Shown: piece after piece, positions 53,654 through 64,000 of the stretch
Position numbering within the stretch: position 1 is the first letter of the stretch
Layout of the letters: every line of letters starts with the position of its first letter
Source: an uncultured Actinomycetota bacterium
GTDB lineage: Bacteria > Actinomycetota > Actinomycetes > Propionibacteriales > Nocardioidaceae
Direction: 5' to 3'
Length of the DNA: 64,000 nucleotides
NCBI GenBank assembly: GCA_963747975.1
Contig: CAVVHI010000006.1
Coordinates: 88,145 to 152,144 of the forward strand
The notes under the pieces: model-generated
Told to the model about the DNA's origin: nothing
Seen by the model: only the letters and a program-made list of their open reading frames with translations
Database searches by the model: none
Translations under genes and position numbers: made by a program

Positions 53654-53789
53654 ATTCGAGGGAGACCAGTCCGTCGGGCAATGGCCGCCGATTAGGCGGC
53701 TGATGCGATGAAGGAGCGGGGCCTCCGCTCCTCGCGCGTCCCCGGCGGATGCTGGGGGTGTACTCACGTCTACGACGAAGGAGGCCCTC

Positions 53790-54824
53790 ATGTCAGAGTA
53801 CGCAGGGCAGCAGTTCGTTGGTATCGATCTGCATCGTCGACGCAGTGTGCTGGTCCGGTCCACGGTCTCCGGGGAGGTCTTGGAGGCGACTCAGATCCTC
53901 AACGACGTCGACCGGCTCAACGCGGTGATGGCGCGGGCGGGTGAGACCCCCGAAGTCGTCCTCGAGGCGACCTATGGGTGGTACTGGGCGGTTGACGCGC
54001 TGCAGGCCGCGGGCGCCAGCGTTCACCTGGCGCATCCGCTGGGAGTGAAGGCGTTCGAGTATCGGCGGGTGAAGAACGACCTCCGTGACGCCACCGACCT
54101 GGCCGATCTGCTGCGGATGGGCCGGCTCCCGGAGTCGTGGATCGCGCCGCCGGCGACCCGGGAGCTGCGTGAGCTGGTCCGCCACCGCGCCAAGCTGGTC
54201 GGGCTGCGGTCCCACTGCAAGGCCGAGATCCACGCGGTGCTGGCCAAGTGCGGCGTCCAGGTGCTGATGAGTGACCTGTTCAGCCCGGCCGGTGAGCACC
54301 TTCTCGACCGTTGCGCCCTGCCCGGTGCGTACGCCGCGCGGGTCCACTCACTGCGTCGACTCATCGACGACCTCGAGGTGGGGATCGACCTGTTCGCGAG
54401 GCTGACCCGAGGCCGGCTGGCCGCCAACCCGGACTATGTCGCACTGCAGCAGCTGCCTGGTGTCGGCCCGGTCCTCGCCGCGGTGTTTCTCGCCGAGGTC
54501 GGCGACGTCACCCGGTTCGCCAGGGCGCCGCAGCTGGCGTGCTGGGCGGGGTTGACCCCCAAGCATCACGAGTCCGACACCCACGTGCACCGGGGCCGGA
54601 TCACCAAGCAGGGTTCTCGCCTGGTTCGGTGGGCGGCGGTGGAGTCGGTCAAGGCGCTGGGGCCCGCCTCGGTGGTCGGTGCCTACAAGAAGCAGGTTGC
54701 CGACCGGCGTGGCAAGAACATCGGCACCGTCGCCGCGGCCCGCAAACAGACCGAGTTCGTGTTCTATGCGTTGCGCGACCATCACGTCCGCGCTCTACAT
54801 CCGCCGCGGCGCACAGCGGCATGA
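53790..54824 (+). CDS. IS110 family DEDD recombinase/transposase
   Basis: AAGGAGG RBS; VGIDLH (D), VLEATYG (E), KNDLRDA (D..D); Tnp domain LPGVGP..GLTP..HESD (catalytic Ser) ..KQG. Confidence 0.95.
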   Translation: MSEYAGQQFVGIDLHRRRSVLVRSTVSGEVLEATQILNDVDRLNAVMARAGETPEVVLEATYGWYWAVDALQAAGASVHLAHPLGVKAFEYRRVKNDLRDATDLADLLRMGRLPESWIAPPATRELRELVRHRAKLVGLRSHCKAEIHAVLAKCGVQVLMSDLFSPAGEHLLDRCALPGAYAARVHSLRRLIDDLEVGIDLFARLTRGRLAANPDYVALQQLPGVGPVLAAVFLAEVGDVTRFARAPQLACWAGLTPKHHESDTHVHRGRITKQGSRLVRWAAVESVKALGPASVVGAYKKQVADRRGKNIGTVAAARKQTEFVFYALRDHHVRALHPPRRTAA

Positions 54825-55030
54825 GGCGCTCGCGCTCGACGCAGGGGTCGGCCGCGAGGCCGTGCAGGTCATGACCCCCAGCCCTCCTCATTGCGAGGGT
54901 CTCGGCGTGGTCGCGCTGTCTGATTGACCCCGACCGACCGTCGCCACGTTCTTCGGCGAACCCCATCATGCGGTCCGTTGGCGAGAAGCTTTCGCCGCCT
55001 CCGCCACGGCACCCGCGAAGGGATGACCGA
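54825..55030 (+). ncRNA. Candidate bridge/seekRNA guide domain
   Basis: GCAGGTCAT 54864-72 is the reverse complement of right flank 55315-23; GTCTGAT 54918-24 matches left flank GGCTGAT at 6/7; AGGGATG 55019-25 equals element end 55311-17; multiple hairpins. Confidence 0.65.
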
Positions 55031-55474
55031 GCGGCCGACTACCTGGGCCCGCTCCCCACCGCCGGCAACGGCAATGATGTGAGAACCGTCCCCTTGTCCG
55101 GCTCCACAGACAGGCTTTCCAGAACACACAGCCCCACTCCGACACCCGAACAGCGTGCGCCGAACGGGACCGGCGTCAAGGCCCTCCGGCCGCTGCGCGG
55201 TCGGGCTCCGCCCGAGCCTGGACCCCGGCTCCTTAGGTCGGCGCGCCTGGACACCGGGTCGGAGGCAGGAAAAAGGGCCGGCCAACACTCTTGACCGGCC
55301 CCGCTCCTTCAGGGATGACCTGCGGCGTTACACGTTGAAGCGGAATGAAAAACCGGAGGTTTCGGCTGTCGTTGGCCACCGCCGGTCGAGGCCGGAAAAT
55401 GCGGTCTGACCTGCGATAACGCGATCCCGGGACCGTTGGGCGTCGTCGGCGATCGTCGGCCTCGGCCGGACTTC

Positions 55475-55495: not shown

Positions 55496-55813
55496 CTATG
55501 CATCCGCCCGCTCGGCGATGGTCGCTTCGATCCAGGCAGGGTTCCGGCGGATGCCGACGACAGCGAGCACGTCGATCCGGTCCTCGTCAACCAGGTAGAC
55601 GGCCATGTACGGGAACCGCTTGAGCAGCGCCCGACGGTACGACTCGAACAGGATGACCCCGGACTCGGGGAACATCTCGATGCGCTCGACCTGCTCGTCC
55701 AGCCGTGCTTCGAACCGACTCGGCAGCGTCGGGTCGAACCGCTCGTAGTGGTCATAGATCGCCGCGAGGTCGTCTTCCACTCCAGGGTGGAAGACGAGGG
55801 GCCGCCGAGTCAC
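55496..55813 (-). CDS. ParE/RelE family toxin
   Basis: LVFHP.VEDDL..IYDHY..RIEMFPESG..LKRFPY..Y..I.VLAV. Confidence 0.88.
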   Translation of the reverse strand: MTRRPLVFHPGVEDDLAAIYDHYERFDPTLPSRFEARLDEQVERIEMFPESGVILFESYRRALLKRFPYMAVYLVDEDRIDVLAVVGIRRNPAWIEATIAERADA

Positions 55814-56031
55814 GCCCTGCGCGCGGCAAGCCGAGCCTTGAGCTCATCCCAGGTCAGCCCGATCGACGGATCTCCCTGAAGCTCCGCCGCCCGAGACCGG
55901 ATGACCGACTTCTGCTCCTCGCTGACCTCGATCGGCTCGGACTCGACGGTGCTCTCGATGTACTCCACCAGCTCCAGGCGCTCATCGAGGCTCATGGCCT
56001 CGATGGCTGACTGCAGAGCGGGATTCACCAT
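55810..56031 (-). CDS. Addiction-module antitoxin
   Basis: MSLDERLELVEYI..IRSR..GDPS..LTWDELK; GTGA-coupled to toxin. Confidence 0.85.
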   Translation of the reverse strand: MVNPALQSAIEAMSLDERLELVEYIESTVESEPIEVSEEQKSVIRSRAAELQGDPSIGLTWDELKARLAARRA

Positions 56032-60467: not shown

Positions 60468-60833
60468 TCAGTCGGATTCGTTGTGGATAGTCGTTGAGGC
60501 TTCCTCGAAGAGGAGCGTCAGAGATGACCTCCACGCGGGCAGGTCACGCGAGAGGGTCAGCCAGGTCAGCTCTCGGTCGATCTCGTCGTACTGGTGGATG
60601 ATGAAGCTGCGGTTGGCGACAGCGAGTGCCCACTCGACGCCATCGGGTGCGAGCACCCCGAGCCGGGATAGCCGGTTGGCGGCCTCCCCCAGTTTCATCA
60701 TCAGCGAGTCGCCGGCCTCTTGAAGCAGGTCGTCGGCAAGGTAAGCCTCGTCGCCACGCCGGATGATCTCGTCGACACGCTCGAGCCAGCCTTGGATGTG
60801 CAGCAGTTCCTTGGCGGCCTTGCGATTCATCAC
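60468..60833 (-). CDS. HEPN (HepT/DUF86) ribonuclease toxin
   Basis: MMKLGEA, RSFIIH (RX4H) followed by QY, D..L.W. Confidence 0.88.
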   Translation of the reverse strand: MMNRKAAKELLHIQGWLERVDEIIRRGDEAYLADDLLQEAGDSLMMKLGEAANRLSRLGVLAPDGVEWALAVANRSFIIHQYDEIDRELTWLTLSRDLPAWRSSLTLLFEEASTTIHNESD

Positions 60834-61303
60834 AGCGGCGCCGCCTCGTGGCGGATGTCGTCATCGAGTCTCGCCTTCAGGCCGCCGTAGGACACGAGGT
60901 CGATCTCGCGTCCAAGGACCTGCTCGATGAGCTGCTTGAAGGCGACGAAGCCGAACGACGACGTGCCTTCGGGTGCTTCTACCAGTAGGTCAATGTCGGA
61001 GTCCTCTCGCGCTTGATGACGCCCGACGGAGCCGAACACCGCGAGGCGGGAGTAGCCATGGTCCTCGGCCAGCGCCTTCAGAATCGGCGCAGCAGCTTCC
61101 ACGAGGACTTCCGGGTGGACCTCATCGAGCACAGGAGCGGACTTGAGTTGCTGACTGATGGCTGGCTGGGTGATGCCCAACGCCTCAGCGATCTTGCGCT
61201 GGCTCATGCCGGTGGCCACCATCGCTCGAAGCGCCAGAAGGCGACGTAGCCTCGCGAGCTCCTCGTCGTGCCTGGCAGCGCGGTACGCATCCGGCAGGGA
61301 CAT
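60830..61303 (-). CDS. HTH-fused minimal nucleotidyltransferase (MntA-like) antitoxin
   Basis: MSQRKIAEALGITQPAISQQL HTH; FGSVGRHQAREDSDIDL (GSX10DXD); IDLVS. Confidence 0.88.
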   Translation of the reverse strand: MSLPDAYRAARHDEELARLRRLLALRAMVATGMSQRKIAEALGITQPAISQQLKSAPVLDEVHPEVLVEAAAPILKALAEDHGYSRLAVFGSVGRHQAREDSDIDLLVEAPEGTSSFGFVAFKQLIEQVLGREIDLVSYGGLKARLDDDIRHEAAPL

Positions 61304-61414: not shown

Positions 61415-61527
61415 GGGCGCAGCACGTCGGCGCCCCCGTACACGCCCCGAACTGCGTTTACGCAGGTGAGACGGCAACCTCCCACGACTCGACGCTGCGA
61501 CAACCTGCGGAATGGTTCGAAACGCGA

Positions 61528-61563
61528 ACCGCCCCTGAGCTACGTTTTCGCGTCAGGGGCGGT
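61528..61563. terminator. 11-bp hairpin beside the tRNA fragment
   Basis: accgcccctga / tcaggggcggt. Confidence 0.6.
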
Positions 61564-61570
61564 CCGGAAA

Positions 61571-61605
61571 GTCGGGCTGACAGGTTTTGAACCTGCGACC
61601 CCTTG
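61571..61605 (-). other. 3' fragment of tRNA-Pro (att-site remnant)
   Basis: Minus strand CAAGGGGTCGCAGGTTCAAAACCTGTCAGCCCGAC = T-arm and acceptor 3' strand of actinobacterial tRNA-Pro(GGG); no anticodon arm, D-arm or CCA. Confidence 0.75.
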
Positions 61606-61759
61606 TCCATCGACAGGGGCAGCGACAGATCTGTCGCCCTTTGCGAAAGCGTGCGCTGACCTGCGCAAACATCTCCACGCGGCTTCTCGGCTCTTGCTCG
61701 ACCGTGACCTCGTGAGCGGCCTCGTGACTGGTGGCCTGACCCCGGGGGCAGCAGCGAAG

Positions 61760-62173
61760 CTATTCCGCGGGCTCGCCTGCCCCGCTGGCGTGCTCGCTCG
61801 TCAACGCGGCGATAAAGGCGGCGACCAGCGCGTCCTGCTGCTTCTTGTCGGCCGGTACGGTGATGCTCTTACCTCCGATCGTCATCTGCAGCGGAGGGGT
61901 CGAAGGGGACCGGCGGGCCAGCCAGTTGCGCACCACCTCTACGACCTTCACGGCCGCCTGTACTGCCGGGGTAACGCCGACAACCAGAGCCCCGATGGCC
62001 GCTACGTCCAGCCCTCTGGAGCCCTCGGGCGCCGGACCGGAGGACGCCTGTTCGACACGCTCCACCTCGTCGATCTGCAGAATCTCGGCTCGAAGGTCCC
62101 TCGTGAGCGCGTCGATCTCCACCAGATCCGCCTCCGGACCACCCAGGAACTCCACCAGGATTTCCTCACCCAT
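61760..62173 (-). CDS. EACC1-like small membrane-associated protein
   Basis: D..EIDALTRDLRAEILQ.D.E.V..SGPAPEGSRGLDVAAIGALVV..VVRNWL.R..TIGG..I. Confidence 0.72.
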   Translation of the reverse strand: MGEEILVEFLGGPEADLVEIDALTRDLRAEILQIDEVERVEQASSGPAPEGSRGLDVAAIGALVVGVTPAVQAAVKVVEVVRNWLARRSPSTPPLQMTIGGKSITVPADKKQQDALVAAFIAALTSEHASGAGEPAE

Positions 62174-62323
62174 GCGGTACTCCTCCCGTTGCGACCGAGG
62201 CTACTCATCCTGGCAGCCTGAGGGCGGAGTTGTCGCGCGCCGACGCCAGCCGGCCAGTCAGGGTCAACGCGGTCTCCGGCGTACGTCACTGCCGCCGGCC
62301 CTCCACCTGCGGTCCGACTGGAC

Positions 62324-63601
62324 TCATTCTGACTCGCGAGTGAGGACCCCGTCATACGGCGCCTCCGGCGGGTCGGCTGACGGGTCGGGGGTGATCTCGA
62401 GATGCAACCTGTCGTCCCCTCTGAGCCTCACCGTGGCAGTTCCCGACGTGCATCGGGGTTCCCTTGCCTCGAACTGCATCCTCATCGTCGTCTCGCTGCC
62501 TCCGGTCAAGAGGAGCGTGCCGTCGGCGCACCCGGTCTCACCAGCGGAGATCTGCGCGCTGATGGCACCCGGCACGAACGTCACCCTCCAGACCAGGTCC
62601 ACGCCCTCGCTCGGCATGTGCGCGGGGCCGGTCCACTTGCCCGCGAAAGCCGATGGGATCGCGGCGATGCCCTGGGGGCTCTCCTGCCACGGCTGCCACC
62701 AGATGAGCCAGATCAACGCAAGCGCGGTCACCGCCGTCGCGATGGCAATAACCCGCGGCGGCCGACCCGAGCCGGCACGCAGAAGCGCCCGCGGAGCAGC
62801 CGCGGGCGGAGCCTCTGCGGGCGGAGCCGCTGCGGCCGGCACCGGCCCGGTCAACGCCTGTTTACTGCTCCGAGCCAAGTGCAGGTCGCCGCGCACGTCG
62901 AAGGTCCACTTGCCGGGGGTCTGATGCGGGGTTGCCTCGCGGACGGCGTCGTACACGTAGTCGTAAAGCTCGTCCAGCCCGATCCAGCCGTCCTGGTTCC
63001 GGTCCGCGTCGCCGGTCCGGAGACCCCGCACCATGGCGGTGGTGAACACCGACGGCTGTGCGGAACCGGACAGATGCTCGCCGTCGAAGGCGTACTCAAG
63101 CGCCCCCGACGCAGTGAGCACCGCCCGCCCGTGCCCACTGAACCGGTCTCCGACGTCGACTTCACTCCCAGCGCGCGTGGCCATCCCGCGGTCGAATGCG
63201 CCAGCGTAGCAACAATCAAGAAACAGCACGATCCGCCGCGACCGGCTCAACGTCATCTGCCGATTCACGAAGTTCGCCGGAACCGATGTGGCGCCCAGGA
63301 GCCGGAGCTTGGTGTTCGTTCCGGCGAAGTGCAGCTCACCGGACTGGTTCTTGATCCCGTGCCCGGAGATGTGAACCACCAGCAGGTCATCCGGCTTTCG
63401 GTCGGAGAAGAACTCCTCTAGAACCTCGGCAATCAGGTGCGCGGGTTGGTTCAGCACCGTGCGTACGTCGAACCCGCCGATCTCTGGGTCACCGAGCACC
63501 GCAGCGAGTGCCTCGGCATCCGCAGAGGGACCGCGCAGCGCGCTCAGCCCAGGATCGTCGTAGGTGTCGGTGGCGACGATCAGCAAACTACGCTTGCCCA
63601 T
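62324..63601 (-). CDS. Caspase-like peptidase C14 (EACC1-associated type) with TM helix and C-terminal extracytoplasmic domain
   Basis: LIVATDTY.DPGL..L..P..DA; HISGHG (His); LDCCYAGAF (Cys); PSVFT.A.V.GL.TG.AD...DG; TM IAIATAVTALALIWLIWW. Confidence 0.88.
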   Translation of the reverse strand: MGKRSLLIVATDTYDDPGLSALRGPSADAEALAAVLGDPEIGGFDVRTVLNQPAHLIAEVLEEFFSDRKPDDLLVVHISGHGIKNQSGELHFAGTNTKLRLLGATSVPANFVNRQMTLSRSRRIVLFLDCCYAGAFDRGMATRAGSEVDVGDRFSGHGRAVLTASGALEYAFDGEHLSGSAQPSVFTTAMVRGLRTGDADRNQDGWIGLDELYDYVYDAVREATPHQTPGKWTFDVRGDLHLARSSKQALTGPVPAAAAPPAEAPPAAAPRALLRAGSGRPPRVIAIATAVTALALIWLIWWQPWQESPQGIAAIPSAFAGKWTGPAHMPSEGVDLVWRVTFVPGAISAQISAGETGCADGTLLLTGGSETTMRMQFEAREPRCTSGTATVRLRGDDRLHLEITPDPSADPPEAPYDGVLTRESE

Positions 63602-64000
63602 GACCTCGTTGTACGCCTGGTCGGTCCGGGGGGGAAGCGCTCTACCGCCGACCAACTCACGGGGAGTCGTGGGTGTCTTGGTGGAGTCGCCAACCAGCAG
63701 TCGCAGAGGTTGGCGTCCTGTCCGTCATAGTCGCGGAGGACCATGCGGCAGCGACCGCGCCGCTTCTCGTATTCGACGTCGAGACCTAGAGCAGCAGCGT
63801 CAGCATGGTGATGTGGCCAACGAGCCAAGGCTGGCTTCCCGCCACACGGCGCGGATTCGGGGGCTGCTCAGCGAGTGCCTGAACCAGAGCGTTGAGAGCG
63901 CGTCATACCGCCAATGAGTCACGTCGCCGGCGTGTCAACTGGCGGCACGGGGTCCGGAGTCGGCCCTCCGAACGGCCGTGCGGGCCGATCCCGTGAGATT

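What the first reader, a model, noticed from the sequence alone, without database searches (positions are those of the whole stretch)
61760..63601. Transmembrane caspase-like protease plus EACC1-like partner at a tRNA island edge
Seen: an intact His/Cys dyad (HISGHG, LDCCYAG), a Pro/Ala linker, one TM helix and a ~110-aa two-Cys C-terminal domain (FAGKWTG..GC..C..YDGVLTR), followed by a 137-aa EACC1-like gene. Known: EACC1-caspase pairs were computationally described as putative conflict systems. Inference: a receptor-like protease sensing an extracytoplasmic cue and cleaving the small membrane partner (defence or cell death). The protease lies upstream of the EACC1-like gene with a 150-bp gap; I recall the opposite, tightly coupled order being usual, which is unverified.
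Basis: partly seen in the sequence, partly recalled or inferred. Interest (0 to 1): 0.65.

Follow-up and report, generated by a model that had tools for sequence, protein, structure and literature searches.

The report
Membrane-anchored caspase with EACC1 pore partner
This is a real copy of a known bacterial suicide and defence module, in which a caspase-like protease cuts a small protein (EACC1) into a membrane pore-former. It is unusual only because the two genes are in reverse order and the protease carries a small, undescribed outward-facing barrel domain that receptor kinases also use.

Summary
Window 62324-63601(-) encodes a 425-aa protein. It has an N-terminal caspase domain (Pfam C14 E 5e-15; NCBIfam 'caspase, EACC1-associated type' 161 bits, cut-off 140; H81/C131 intact), a Pro/Ala linker, one TM helix and a 113-aa two-Cys C-terminal domain. 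After a 150-bp gap, 61760-62173(-) encodes a 137-aa EACC1 (Pfam 28.9 bits, cut-off 23.6; more than 100 homologues at 65-82% identity).

This is the 'System 4' EACC1-caspase module of Kaur et al. 2020. Evans et al. 2025 showed for one homologue that the caspase cleaves EACC1 and the C-terminal fragment forms membrane pores.

Three things differ here:
- **Gene order.** Caspase then EACC1 on one strand was the only such case among 47 EACC1 genes surveyed (32 canonical, 8 convergent, 4 divergent, 2 with no caspase).
- **Mosaic pair.** The nearest EACC1 relatives pair with TM/beta-propeller caspases. The nearest caspase relatives have no adjacent EACC1, although seven relatives are EACC1-caspase-TM-barrel fusions.
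- **Ectodomain.** It is a confidently modelled eight-stranded, calycin-like barrel with no Pfam family. It also sits on transmembrane Ser/Thr kinases.

There is no tRNA gene nearby, only a 38-nt tRNA-Pro 3' relic. Verdict: a new member of a known kind, of moderate interest.

The parts
62324..63601 (-). Gene for a 425-aa membrane-anchored, EACC1-type caspase (P0001), stop codon included
   Evidence: ORF with GAGG Shine-Dalgarno sequence. Pfam PF00656 E 4.9e-15. NCBIfam NF047832 161.2 bits against a 140 cut-off. It is the only such caspase in the genome.
62852..63592 (-). Cytoplasmic caspase (C14) domain, residues 4-250. Catalytic H81 is at codon 63359-63361 and C131 at codon 63209-63211.
   Evidence: The dyad is invariant in alignment A2. 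The AF2 model matches MALT1 paracaspase, caspases 7/8, yeast metacaspase and GSU0716 by Foldseek, with E down to 1.6e-9.
62762..62851 (-). Pro/Ala-rich disordered linker, residues 251-280. The HEAT-like helical insert found in most relatives is absent here.
   Evidence: pLDDT below 50 for residues 251-285. The insert is present in P0003, P0005 and P0009 and absent here and in P0010, P0037, P0055 and P0065.
62693..62761 (-). Single transmembrane helix, residues 281-303, predicted N-in/C-out
   Evidence: Kyte-Doolittle peak of 2.25 over residues 281-303. Arg-rich N-flank (RALLRAGSGRPPR) and no basic residues on the C-flank. Modelled as a helix over residues 284-305.
62327..62665 (-). Extracytoplasmic two-Cys domain, residues 313-425: an eight-stranded up-and-down beta-barrel (calycin-like) with motif IPxxFxGxWxG and invariant C358 and C384
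   Evidence: AF2 on a 23-sequence alignment gives pLDDT 93.4 and pTM 0.85. Foldseek gives only fold-level matches to designed 8-strand barrels, CRABP/FABP and lipocalin-like proteins (E about 3e-3, TM 0.5-0.63). No Pfam or PDB sequence match. The same domain occurs at the C-terminus of TM Ser/Thr kinases.
62174..62323 (-). 150-bp spacer. Its last ~45 nt (conserved TANNNT-like hexamer plus GGGAGGAG Shine-Dalgarno sequence) travel with EACC1 in relatives.
   Evidence: DNA homology to related EACC1 loci begins 36-54 bp upstream of the ATG. The conserved block ...GAGTAGCCTCGGTCGCAACGGGAGGAG... appears in 8 loci. No terminator-like site lies in the spacer on the minus strand.
61760..62173 (-). Gene for a 137-aa EACC1 (P0002), the latent pore-forming effector. 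The predicted processing site is in the conserved EGS[KR]G[LVI]D|VAAIG segment (D56, codon 62006-62008), just before the Gly/Ala-rich hydrophobic helix (residues ~57-81).
   Evidence: Pfam PF19953 28.9 bits against a 23.6 cut-off. 117 homologues, most flagged EACC1. D56 is nearly invariant, and G51, A59, G61 and L63 are invariant. The predicted fragments are 6.0 and 8.2 kDa, against 5.7 and 7.1 kDa for the tested K. racemifer protein.
61571..61608 (-). Relic of the 3' half of tRNA-Pro(GGG), from the anticodon loop to the acceptor end. It resembles an att site and is not a gene.
   Evidence: 36 of 38 identical to positions 37-75 of the tRNA at G000:C2:394465-394540. ARAGORN and Rfam find no tRNA in the window.

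Best explanation
This is a working-looking copy of the EACC1-caspase two-gene conflict module.

**The protease.** It is a type-II-like membrane protein. Its caspase domain faces the cytoplasm, followed by a flexible Pro/Ala linker and one TM helix. A small disulfide-capable, calycin-like beta-barrel faces outward.

**Proposed activation (inferred).** An event at the cell envelope, either a bound ligand or a perturbation, is read by the barrel and brings protease monomers together. The same barrel is attached to Hanks-type Ser/Thr kinases, whose output is also activated by dimerisation.

**Proposed effect.** The activated caspase then cleaves the soluble, auto-inhibited EACC1 in its conserved EGSRGLD|VAAIG segment. 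This cleavage has been shown for a homologue and is inferred here. It would free the C-terminal ~8-kDa fragment, whose Gly/Ala-rich hydrophobic helix and beta-strands oligomerise into membrane pores. The outcome would be loss of membrane integrity and death or dormancy of the cell, either as abortive-infection defence or another regulated death response.

**Origin of the pair.** The pair is evolutionarily mosaic. An EACC1 cassette with its own ~45-nt upstream element, of a clade normally placed tail-to-tail with a TM/beta-propeller caspase, now lies 150 bp downstream of a caspase from a different clade. The module sits in a variable, lower-GC accessory stretch next to ychF.
For: - **Identity of both genes.**
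- **Caspase fold and intact dyad.**
- **Mechanism shown for a homologue.** The KrAvs12 caspase cleaves EACC1 at about Asp49. Only the C-terminal fragment is toxic, and it permeabilises liposomes. The C152A mutant abolishes this (Evans et al. 2025).
- **Matching cleavage segment.** The equivalent segment, with a nearly invariant Asp just before the hydrophobic helix, is conserved in all EACC1 clades, including this one and the fusion proteins.
- **Strict co-occurrence.** Of 201 genomes in the same family, 23 have the caspase, and exactly those 23 have EACC1. Of 47 EACC1 genes, 45 lie next to a caspase, in any orientation.
- **Sole copies.** This genome has exactly one of each, and they are adjacent.
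- **Fusions.** Seven relatives fuse EACC1, caspase, TM and the same two-Cys barrel in one polypeptide. This ties this caspase class to EACC1.
- **Ectodomain.** It is modelled at pLDDT 93 as an 8-stranded barrel and is shared with TM Ser/Thr kinases and TM-anchored stand-alone proteins. Topology is supported by the charge distribution.
- **Expression signals.** Both ORFs are intact and have Shine-Dalgarno sequences.
Against:
- **Discordant ancestry.** The nearest relatives of the caspase (67-77% identity; P0003, P0005, P0009, P0041, P0055) have no EACC1 within 5-8 kb. The nearest EACC1 relatives (76-82% identity) pair with a caspase that is only 46-49% identical to this one. The juxtaposition is therefore recent and its compatibility is unproven.
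- **Unique order.** The gene order was not seen elsewhere in the survey.
- **Uncertain cleavage position.** It is transferred by analogy. The K. racemifer sequence was not aligned here. The conserved K/R53 could be the P1 residue instead, as in Arg/Lys-specific metacaspases.
- **Weak barrel assignment.** The ligand-binding reading of the barrel rests on fold-level similarity only (E about 3e-3).
Confidence: 0.62

Rival explanations
1. The pair is a relic or chance juxtaposition. EACC1 is an orphan left behind when its original convergent TM/beta-propeller caspase was lost at the breakpoint just after its stop codon. The upstream caspase belongs to a clade that normally works without an adjacent EACC1. 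On this reading the two genes do not form a functional unit here.
For: The nearest neighbours of the two genes are discordant. DNA homology to related EACC1 loci stops 18 bp after the stop codon, where relatives have the abutting convergent caspase, and a tRNA-Pro relic lies there instead. No remnant of the propeller caspase exists in the genome. Orphan EACC1-type caspases are common: 15 of 60 domains, and 6 of 8 loci that carry this ectodomain.
Against: Both ORFs are full length with intact motifs and Shine-Dalgarno sequences. They are the only caspase and the only EACC1 in the genome, and they lie 150 bp apart on the same strand. Across 38 genomes, EACC1 almost never occurs away from a caspase. 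EACC1 fusions to this very caspase-ectodomain class exist. The cleavage segment is conserved across EACC1 clades.
Confidence: 0.2
2. This is the original Kaur et al. 2020 model. EACC1 is a membrane-inserted sensor whose glycine-rich TM helix detects a membrane event and activates the caspase. The caspase then auto-processes to release its own C-terminal domain as the effector.
For: The model was proposed from sequence analysis of the family. EACC1 has a strongly hydrophobic, small-residue-rich helix at residues 55-81.
Against: Experiments on a homologue show that EACC1 is the substrate and the toxic pore-former, and that it can be purified as a soluble monomer. Here the caspase's C-terminal domain is a 113-aa extracellular barrel shared with receptor kinases, which suits an input domain better than a released effector. 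In the natural fusions, a membrane-spanning EACC1 helix would place the caspase domain outside the cell.
Confidence: 0.06
3. The biochemistry is the same (caspase cleaves EACC1 and a pore forms), but the purpose is not anti-phage. On this reading the module is an envelope-stress, antibiotic or kin-signal triggered death or developmental switch.
For: The sensor domain is extracytoplasmic, so it cannot bind intracellular phage proteins the way Avs-type partners do. It is shared with Ser/Thr receptor kinases, which are typical of envelope and developmental signalling. Kaur et al. link the system statistically to multicellular habit. Evans et al. note EACC1-DnaK fusions that hint at stress roles.
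Against: The neighbourhood looks like a defence and toxin-antitoxin hotspot, with MNT/HepT, ParE and its antitoxin, and an IS110 element. The only tested EACC1 system responds to a phage protein. Nothing here separates the two purposes.
Confidence: 0.3

Closest known systems
[quoted passage not shown]
   Same: It has a small EACC1 protein plus a protein with an N-terminal caspase domain and a variable C-terminal region. It occurs in actinobacteria. TM helices occur in at least 33% of the partner caspases, and TM plus an extracellular domain (PBP) is already noted.
   Different: The gene order is inverted (caspase 5', EACC1 3', 150-bp gap instead of 4-39 bp), which was unique among 47 surveyed. 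The extracellular domain is a small two-Cys calycin-like barrel, which was not in the part of that paper read here (its source data were not checked).
Ktedonobacter racemifer EACC1-KrAvs12 (Evans et al. 2025, bioRxiv 10.1101/2025.11.14.688446)
   Same: The caspase and EACC1 families are the same. The fragment sizes predicted here (6.0 and 8.2 kDa) resemble the measured 5.7 and 7.1 kDa. An Asp lies directly before the hydrophobic helix.
   Different: There the sensor is a cytoplasmic STAND/Avs12 NTPase that recognises phage tail-connector proteins, and EACC1 is encoded upstream. Here there is no NTPase, and the sensor is an extracytoplasmic barrel behind a TM helix.
Nocardioides-type EACC1 with a convergent TM/beta-propeller caspase (loci L004-L014, L025, L026; G179, G107, G047 and others)
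   Same: EACC1 is 70-82% identical, including its ~45-nt upstream element. The partner is likewise caspase, linker, single TM and extracytoplasmic domain.
   Different: That partner caspase is only 46-49% identical, carries a TolB-like beta-propeller ectodomain and lies tail-to-tail with EACC1.
EACC1-caspase-HEAT-TM-two-Cys-barrel fusion proteins (P0066, P0070, P0072, P0073 [named Kribbellaceae by its source], P0074, P0086, P0104; G366 locus L022)
   Same: They have the same caspase clade (61-63% identity) and the same ectodomain. EACC1 is physically coupled to them.
   Different: Everything is in one polypeptide, with EACC1 at the N-terminus. Their EACC1 part is only about 45% identical to this one. 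They carry a HEAT-like insert that is absent here.
Bacterial gasdermin-protease pairs and mammalian caspase-gasdermin
   Same: The logic is the same: a protease removes an inhibitory part of a latent pore-former, and the product permeabilises the membrane. Evans et al. draw this parallel.
   Different: The pore-former families are unrelated. No gasdermin fold or sequence is present here.

Membership tests
EACC1 (Pfam PF19953) | Match to the family profile above the curated cut-off | tested here: met
   28.9 bits against a 23.6 cut-off, E 1.2e-6, covering profile positions 9-105 of 107. Most of its 117 homologues are pre-annotated PF19953 or named EACC1 by NCBI or JGI. A six-frame genome scan with the Pfam model at E<=0.01 missed it, so the Pfam match alone is modest.
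EACC1 (Pfam PF19953) | Strongly conserved central hydrophobic helix with a patch of small or glycine residues | tested here: met
   The sequence is VAAIGALVVGVTPAVQAAVKVV (residues 57-78). A59, G61 and L63 are invariant, and the hydropathy peak is at residues 55-81.
EACC1 (Pfam PF19953) | Encoded next to a gene for a caspase-superfamily protein | tested here: met
   It lies 150 bp from the caspase gene on the same strand. 45 of 47 surveyed EACC1 genes are likewise adjacent to a caspase.
EACC1-caspase System 4 (Kaur et al. 2020) | EACC1 is the 5' gene and the caspase the 3' gene, tightly linked | tested here: not met
   Here the caspase is 5' and EACC1 is 3', with a 150-bp gap. This is an organisational feature, not a biochemical one. 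12 other surveyed pairs also depart from it (8 convergent, 4 divergent).
EACC1-caspase System 4 (Kaur et al. 2020) | Caspase domain at the N-terminus, followed by a variable C-terminal region that often has TM helices | tested here: met
   Caspase covers residues 4-250, then linker, TM at 281-303, then a 113-aa domain.
EACC1-associated caspase (NCBIfam NF047832) | Profile match above the curated cut-off, with the catalytic His/Cys dyad | tested here: met
   161.2 bits against a 140 cut-off. H81 and C131 are invariant in A2. The caspase fold is confirmed by AF2 and Foldseek.
Protease-activated EACC1 pore (Evans et al. 2025) | The caspase cleaves EACC1 between the N-terminal inhibitory part and the C-terminal pore-forming part, and the C-terminal fragment is toxic and permeabilises membranes | not testable with these tools
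   Only the conserved candidate site (EGSRGLD56|VAAIG) and the comparable fragment sizes could be shown.
Calycin / lipocalin-like barrels | Eight-stranded antiparallel up-and-down barrel with a GxW motif in the first strand | tested here: inconclusive
   The model has 8 strands at pLDDT 93. G321-x-W323 is invariant. Foldseek matches are only fold-level (E 2.8e-3 to 2e-2, TM 0.46-0.63). There is no sequence-profile link to any Pfam or PDB family. The role of GxW as a lipocalin signature is from my own knowledge.
Type VII toxin-antitoxin MNT/HepT (neighbouring genes, not part of the module) | A nucleotidyltransferase antitoxin gene overlapping a HEPN RNase toxin gene | tested here: met
   Pfam NTP_transf_2 40.8 bits and HepT-like 34.6 bits are both above their cut-offs, and the genes overlap by 4 bp. 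The NCBIfam equivalog models are below their cut-offs.

The most novel reading that the evidence does not exclude
The module may be an outside-in death receptor. On this reading, a previously undescribed extracytoplasmic calycin-like ligand-binding barrel, interchangeable between receptor Ser/Thr kinases and caspases, dimerises a cytoplasmic caspase in response to an extracellular or envelope cue. That cue could be a phage-adsorption by-product, an envelope lipid or a kin alarm molecule. The caspase would then convert EACC1 into a pore. A corollary is that the many orphan EACC1-type caspases in other genomes may act in trans on a single EACC1, giving many sensors and one executioner.
Probability: 0.3. 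Interest if true: 0.65.

Novelty: new member of a known kind. Interest (0 to 1): 0.35.

Why it matters
The EACC1-caspase module has one experimentally studied example, driven by a cytoplasmic phage-protein sensor. This locus is a compact, NTPase-free version whose only candidate input is an extracellular 113-aa barrel. It would therefore be a simple system for asking whether bacterial caspase-pore death modules can be triggered from outside the cell.

The finding also defines a small, unannotated ectodomain family that is swapped between receptor kinases and caspases. Finally, it shows that EACC1 and its caspase stay linked in any gene orientation, and that a pair can be re-assorted between clades. 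This bears on how specific caspase-EACC1 recognition is.

Tried and rejected
- **tRNA gene at the island edge.** ARAGORN and Rfam found none. Only a 38-nt relic is present.
- **Pfam EACC1 model on the six-frame genome.** No hit at E<=0.01, so I switched to a clade alignment (A1), which recovered it at 7.5e-62.
- **PADLOC.** It has a caspase model (weak hit, 29 bits) but nothing for EACC1.
- **A second EACC1 upstream of the caspase, which would restore the canonical order.** The 63602-64063 stretch has no coding-like ORF. The 82-aa ORF at 63580-63828 has a GC3 of 0.63.
- **Remnants of the convergent beta-propeller caspase.** None were found anywhere in the genome.
- **EACC1 near the closest caspase relatives.** None within 5-8 kb in L008, L018-L021, L023 and L024.
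- **Family assignment of the ectodomain by sequence.** No Pfam hit and no PDB sequence hit. Two representative-search hits (P0252, P0255) were Ig-like or Calx-beta repeat false positives.
- **Sigma-70-type promoter scan.** It found nothing, but it is not suited to actinobacteria.
- **Synteny with same-genus genomes.** It ends at the 3' end of ychF and gives no empty-site sequence, only a variable hotspot.
Full report
**1. What is in the sequence**

On the minus strand, 62324-63601 encodes a 425-aa protein (P0001) and 61760-62173 encodes a 137-aa protein (P0002). A 150-bp spacer separates them. Both starts have good Shine-Dalgarno sequences: GAGG, and GGGAGGAG.

P0001 matches Pfam Peptidase_C14 (E 4.9e-15, residues 24-247). 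It also matches the NCBIfam model 'caspase, EACC1-associated type' NF047832 at 161.2 bits against a 140 cut-off. H81 in HISGHG and C131 in LDCCYAG are invariant among full-length homologues.

An AlphaFold2 model has a confident caspase core. It matches MALT1 paracaspase, caspases 7/8, yeast metacaspase and the bacterial GSU0716 protein by Foldseek, with E down to 1.6e-9.

After the caspase domain come:
- a disordered Pro/Ala linker (residues 251-280);
- one hydrophobic helix (residues 281-303), with four Arg on its N-side and none on its C-side, which predicts N-in/C-out;
- a 113-aa domain with two invariant cysteines, C358 and C384.

P0002 matches Pfam EACC1 above the gathering cut-off (28.9 against 23.6 bits). 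It has 117 database homologues, most at 65-82% identity, and nearly all are pre-annotated as EACC1.

**2. The 'tRNA island edge'**

There is no tRNA gene in the window. Downstream of EACC1, at 61571-61608(-), lies a 38-nt copy of the 3' half of tRNA-Pro(GGG), running from the anticodon loop to the acceptor end. It matches 36 of 38 bases of the intact gene, which is on another contig. This is the part of a tRNA that integrative elements duplicate, so it reads as an att-like relic.

The module lies at the border between core genes and an accessory stretch:
- **Core side.** ychF lies immediately upstream of the caspase gene (higher window coordinates), followed by xth, with GC3 of at least 0.95.
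- **Accessory side.** GC is lower (about 0.67-0.70 against 0.72-0.75) and GC3 is lower (0.78-0.92). This stretch holds MNT/HepT and ParE/antitoxin pairs, an IS110 element and a few redox enzymes.

Synteny with five same-genus genomes stops at the 3' end of ychF, and what follows differs in each genome. None of the 12 same-genus genomes sampled has the caspase or EACC1. The module is therefore an accessory acquisition in a variable hotspot.

**3. What is known about this kind of pair**

Kaur et al. [quoted passage not shown] It has a 5' EACC1 gene and a 3' gene with an N-terminal caspase domain, followed by any of about 50 alternative C-terminal domains. At least 33% of those proteins contain TM helices, and some carry a TM helix plus an extracellular PBP domain.

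Evans et al. 2025 (bioRxiv 10.1101/2025.11.14.688446) tested one example from Ktedonobacter racemifer. The caspase of KrAvs12 cleaves EACC1 into 5.7-kDa N-terminal and 7.1-kDa C-terminal fragments, at a putative Asp49. Only the C-terminal fragment is toxic, and cleaved EACC1 permeabilises liposomes. The catalytic Cys mutant abolishes all of this.

**4. Gene order**

I located EACC1 (alignment A1) and EACC1-type caspase domains in sampled species genomes of the same family (201), order (401) and class (401). The tally of the 47 EACC1 genes is.

| Arrangement | EACC1 genes |
|---|---|
| Canonical: EACC1 then caspase, 4-39 bp gap or fused | 32 |
| Convergent | 8 |
| Divergent | 4 |
| No caspase on the contig | 2 |
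| Caspase then EACC1, same strand (this window) | 1 |

Within the window's own family, co-occurrence is exact: 23 genomes have the caspase, and the same 23 have EACC1.

Even so, the pair stays linked in every orientation. A ~45-nt block upstream of EACC1 is conserved in eight loci. It contains a TANNNT-like hexamer and the Shine-Dalgarno sequence. This suggests that this EACC1 clade can be transcribed on its own, which would make orientation unimportant. That last step is inference.

**5. The pair is mosaic**

- **EACC1 relatives.** The closest EACC1 proteins (76-82% identity) are all followed, within 1-200 bp, by a convergent gene. It encodes caspase, a HEAT-like helix, a linker, a TM helix and a TolB-like beta-propeller, and its caspase domain is only 46-49% identical to ours.
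- **Limits of DNA homology.** Homology to those loci runs only from about 54 bp upstream to 18 bp downstream of the EACC1 ORF. No trace of a propeller caspase remains in the genome.
- **Caspase relatives.** The closest caspases (67-77% identity in the protease domain, with the same TM and two-Cys domain) have no EACC1 within 5-8 kb in seven loci.
- **Fusions.** Seven relatives, plus one genome locus, are single polypeptides of EACC1, caspase, HEAT, TM and the two-Cys domain. This links this caspase class to EACC1 by domain fusion.
- **Orphan caspases.** Genomes with orphan caspases of this class do carry a canonical EACC1-caspase pair elsewhere (G440 and G451). Overall, 15 of 60 EACC1-type caspase domains are orphans. 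That is compatible with several sensors sharing one EACC1 in trans, but this is only an idea.

**6. The C-terminal domain**

Modelled alone on a 23-sequence alignment, it gives pLDDT 93.4 and pTM 0.85. The model is an eight-stranded up-and-down beta-barrel.

Foldseek finds only fold-level neighbours: designed 8-strand barrels, cellular retinoic-acid/fatty-acid binding proteins, Tp0751 and a lipocalin-like milk protein. These have E of 2.8e-3 or worse and TM scores of 0.46-0.63. No Pfam family and no PDB sequence matches it.

The invariant residues are P316, G321, W323, G325, G345, C358, G361, F377 and C384. The FxGxWxG motif recalls the lipocalin GxW signature (my own knowledge). The two Cys sit in loops at the same end of the barrel, so a disulfide is plausible (inference).

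A full-library search found about 25 clusters with this domain. The longer ones are Pkinase, TM and this domain (seven of the ten scanned). The shorter ones are TM-anchored stand-alone copies. It is therefore an undescribed extracytoplasmic module, used as the outer part of at least two kinds of membrane signalling protein. In the sampled order it is rare, present in 4 of 401 genomes.

**7. Most likely mechanism**

- **Shown here:** gene identities, intact catalytic residues, predicted topology, the barrel fold, and linkage statistics.
- **Shown elsewhere for a homologue:** the caspase cleaves EACC1, and the C-terminal fragment makes pores.
- **Inferred here:**
  - The barrel senses an envelope or extracellular cue and promotes caspase dimerisation. 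Both output domains attached to this barrel, Hanks kinases and caspases, are classically activated by dimerisation.
  - The caspase cuts EACC1 in the conserved EGSRGLD56|VAAIG segment, giving 6.0- and 8.2-kDa fragments.
  - The C-terminal fragment inserts next to the membrane-bound protease and permeabilises the cell.

My confidence differs by claim:

| Claim | Confidence |
|---|---|
| This is an EACC1-caspase module | about 0.95 |
| This particular re-assorted pair works together | about 0.7 |
| The barrel is the controlling sensor | about 0.5 |
| The combined statement | 0.62 |

**8. Rivals**

- **Relic juxtaposition (0.2).** It is favoured by the discordant ancestry and the breakpoint at the EACC1 stop codon. 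It is disfavoured by the intact ORFs, by these being the sole caspase and sole EACC1 in the genome, by the near-universal adjacency elsewhere, and by the fusions.
- **The original Kaur model, with EACC1 as the membrane sensor and the caspase C-terminus as the effector (0.06).** It is disfavoured by the 2025 experiments and by the nature of the C-terminal domain here.
- **Anti-phage defence or another regulated death or stress response.** This question is open. The extracytoplasmic input argues against sensing of intracellular phage proteins, while the toxin-antitoxin and IS neighbourhood looks like a defence hotspot.

**9. Novelty and verdict**

The system type, the TM-bearing caspase partners and the cleavage-to-pore logic are all already described. 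What this locus adds is an unusual gene order, evidence that EACC1 and caspase clades can be re-assorted, and a small unannotated calycin-like ectodomain shared with receptor kinases.

That makes it a new member of a known kind with some variant features. It is useful as a minimal, NTPase-free test case, but it would not surprise a specialist. Interest 0.35.

Noticed in passing
window 61571-61608 (-), with hairpin 61525-61566: A 38-nt relic of the 3' half of tRNA-Pro(GGG) matches 36 of 38 bases of the intact gene on contig C2. A 14-bp-stem GC-rich hairpin lies next to it. The pair looks like a decayed att site with no integrase nearby.
   Followed up: partly
window 60468-61303 (-): An MNT-like nucleotidyltransferase with an N-terminal HTH (157 aa) overlaps a HepT/HEPN RNase gene (121 aa) by 4 bp. 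This is a type VII toxin-antitoxin pair. It passes the Pfam cut-offs but falls below the NCBIfam equivalog cut-offs.
   Followed up: partly
window 55496-56031 (-): A ParE-family toxin (105 aa) and an 'Unstab_antitox' antitoxin (73 aa) form a pair just right of the IS110/IS1111 element at about 53700-55300. A same-genus genome (L029) shares short pieces of this region.
   Followed up: no
window ~52000-64060, compared with L027-L031: The region downstream of ychF is a variable hotspot. Synteny with five same-genus genomes ends at the ychF stop codon, and GC and GC3 drop across the accessory stretch.
   Followed up: partly
G440, G451, G586, G701, G785, G933, G653: Many actinobacterial genomes carry more EACC1-type caspases than EACC1 genes: 15 of 60 caspase domains have no adjacent EACC1. 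Several sensor caspases may share one EACC1 in trans.
   Followed up: partly
Own family: G179, G107, G047, G125, G152, G040, G162 (convergent); G169, G193, G148, G164 (divergent): In this bacterial family, 12 of 26 EACC1-caspase pairs other than the window's are convergent or divergent rather than an operon. In other actinobacterial families sampled, all 13 were canonical.
   Followed up: yes
L003 2735-5852; L006 and L007 right ends: In metagenomic relatives, EACC1 lies directly downstream of a 438-aa metallo-beta-lactamase-fold gene with the same ~150-bp gap, near a patatin gene. MBL-fold proteins are another protease-activated effector class in Evans et al. 2025.
   Followed up: no
L008 7432-8796: The closest full-length relative of the caspase (P0055) has no EACC1. 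It is followed 64 bp downstream by a 'GT4-conflict' glycosyltransferase (PF20706), which may be an alternative partner.
   Followed up: no
window 62174-62227 and the equivalent positions in L003, L004, L009, L011, L025, L026: A conserved ~45-nt element lies upstream of EACC1. It contains a TA(G/A)(C/T)CT hexamer about 28 nt before the ATG, plus a GGGAGGAG Shine-Dalgarno sequence. It may be EACC1's own promoter -10 element.
   Followed up: partly
G601:C129:15114-18908: One locus has a canonical EACC1-caspase pair plus a second EACC1-type caspase about 2 kb away on the opposite strand, so two caspases flank one EACC1.
   Followed up: no
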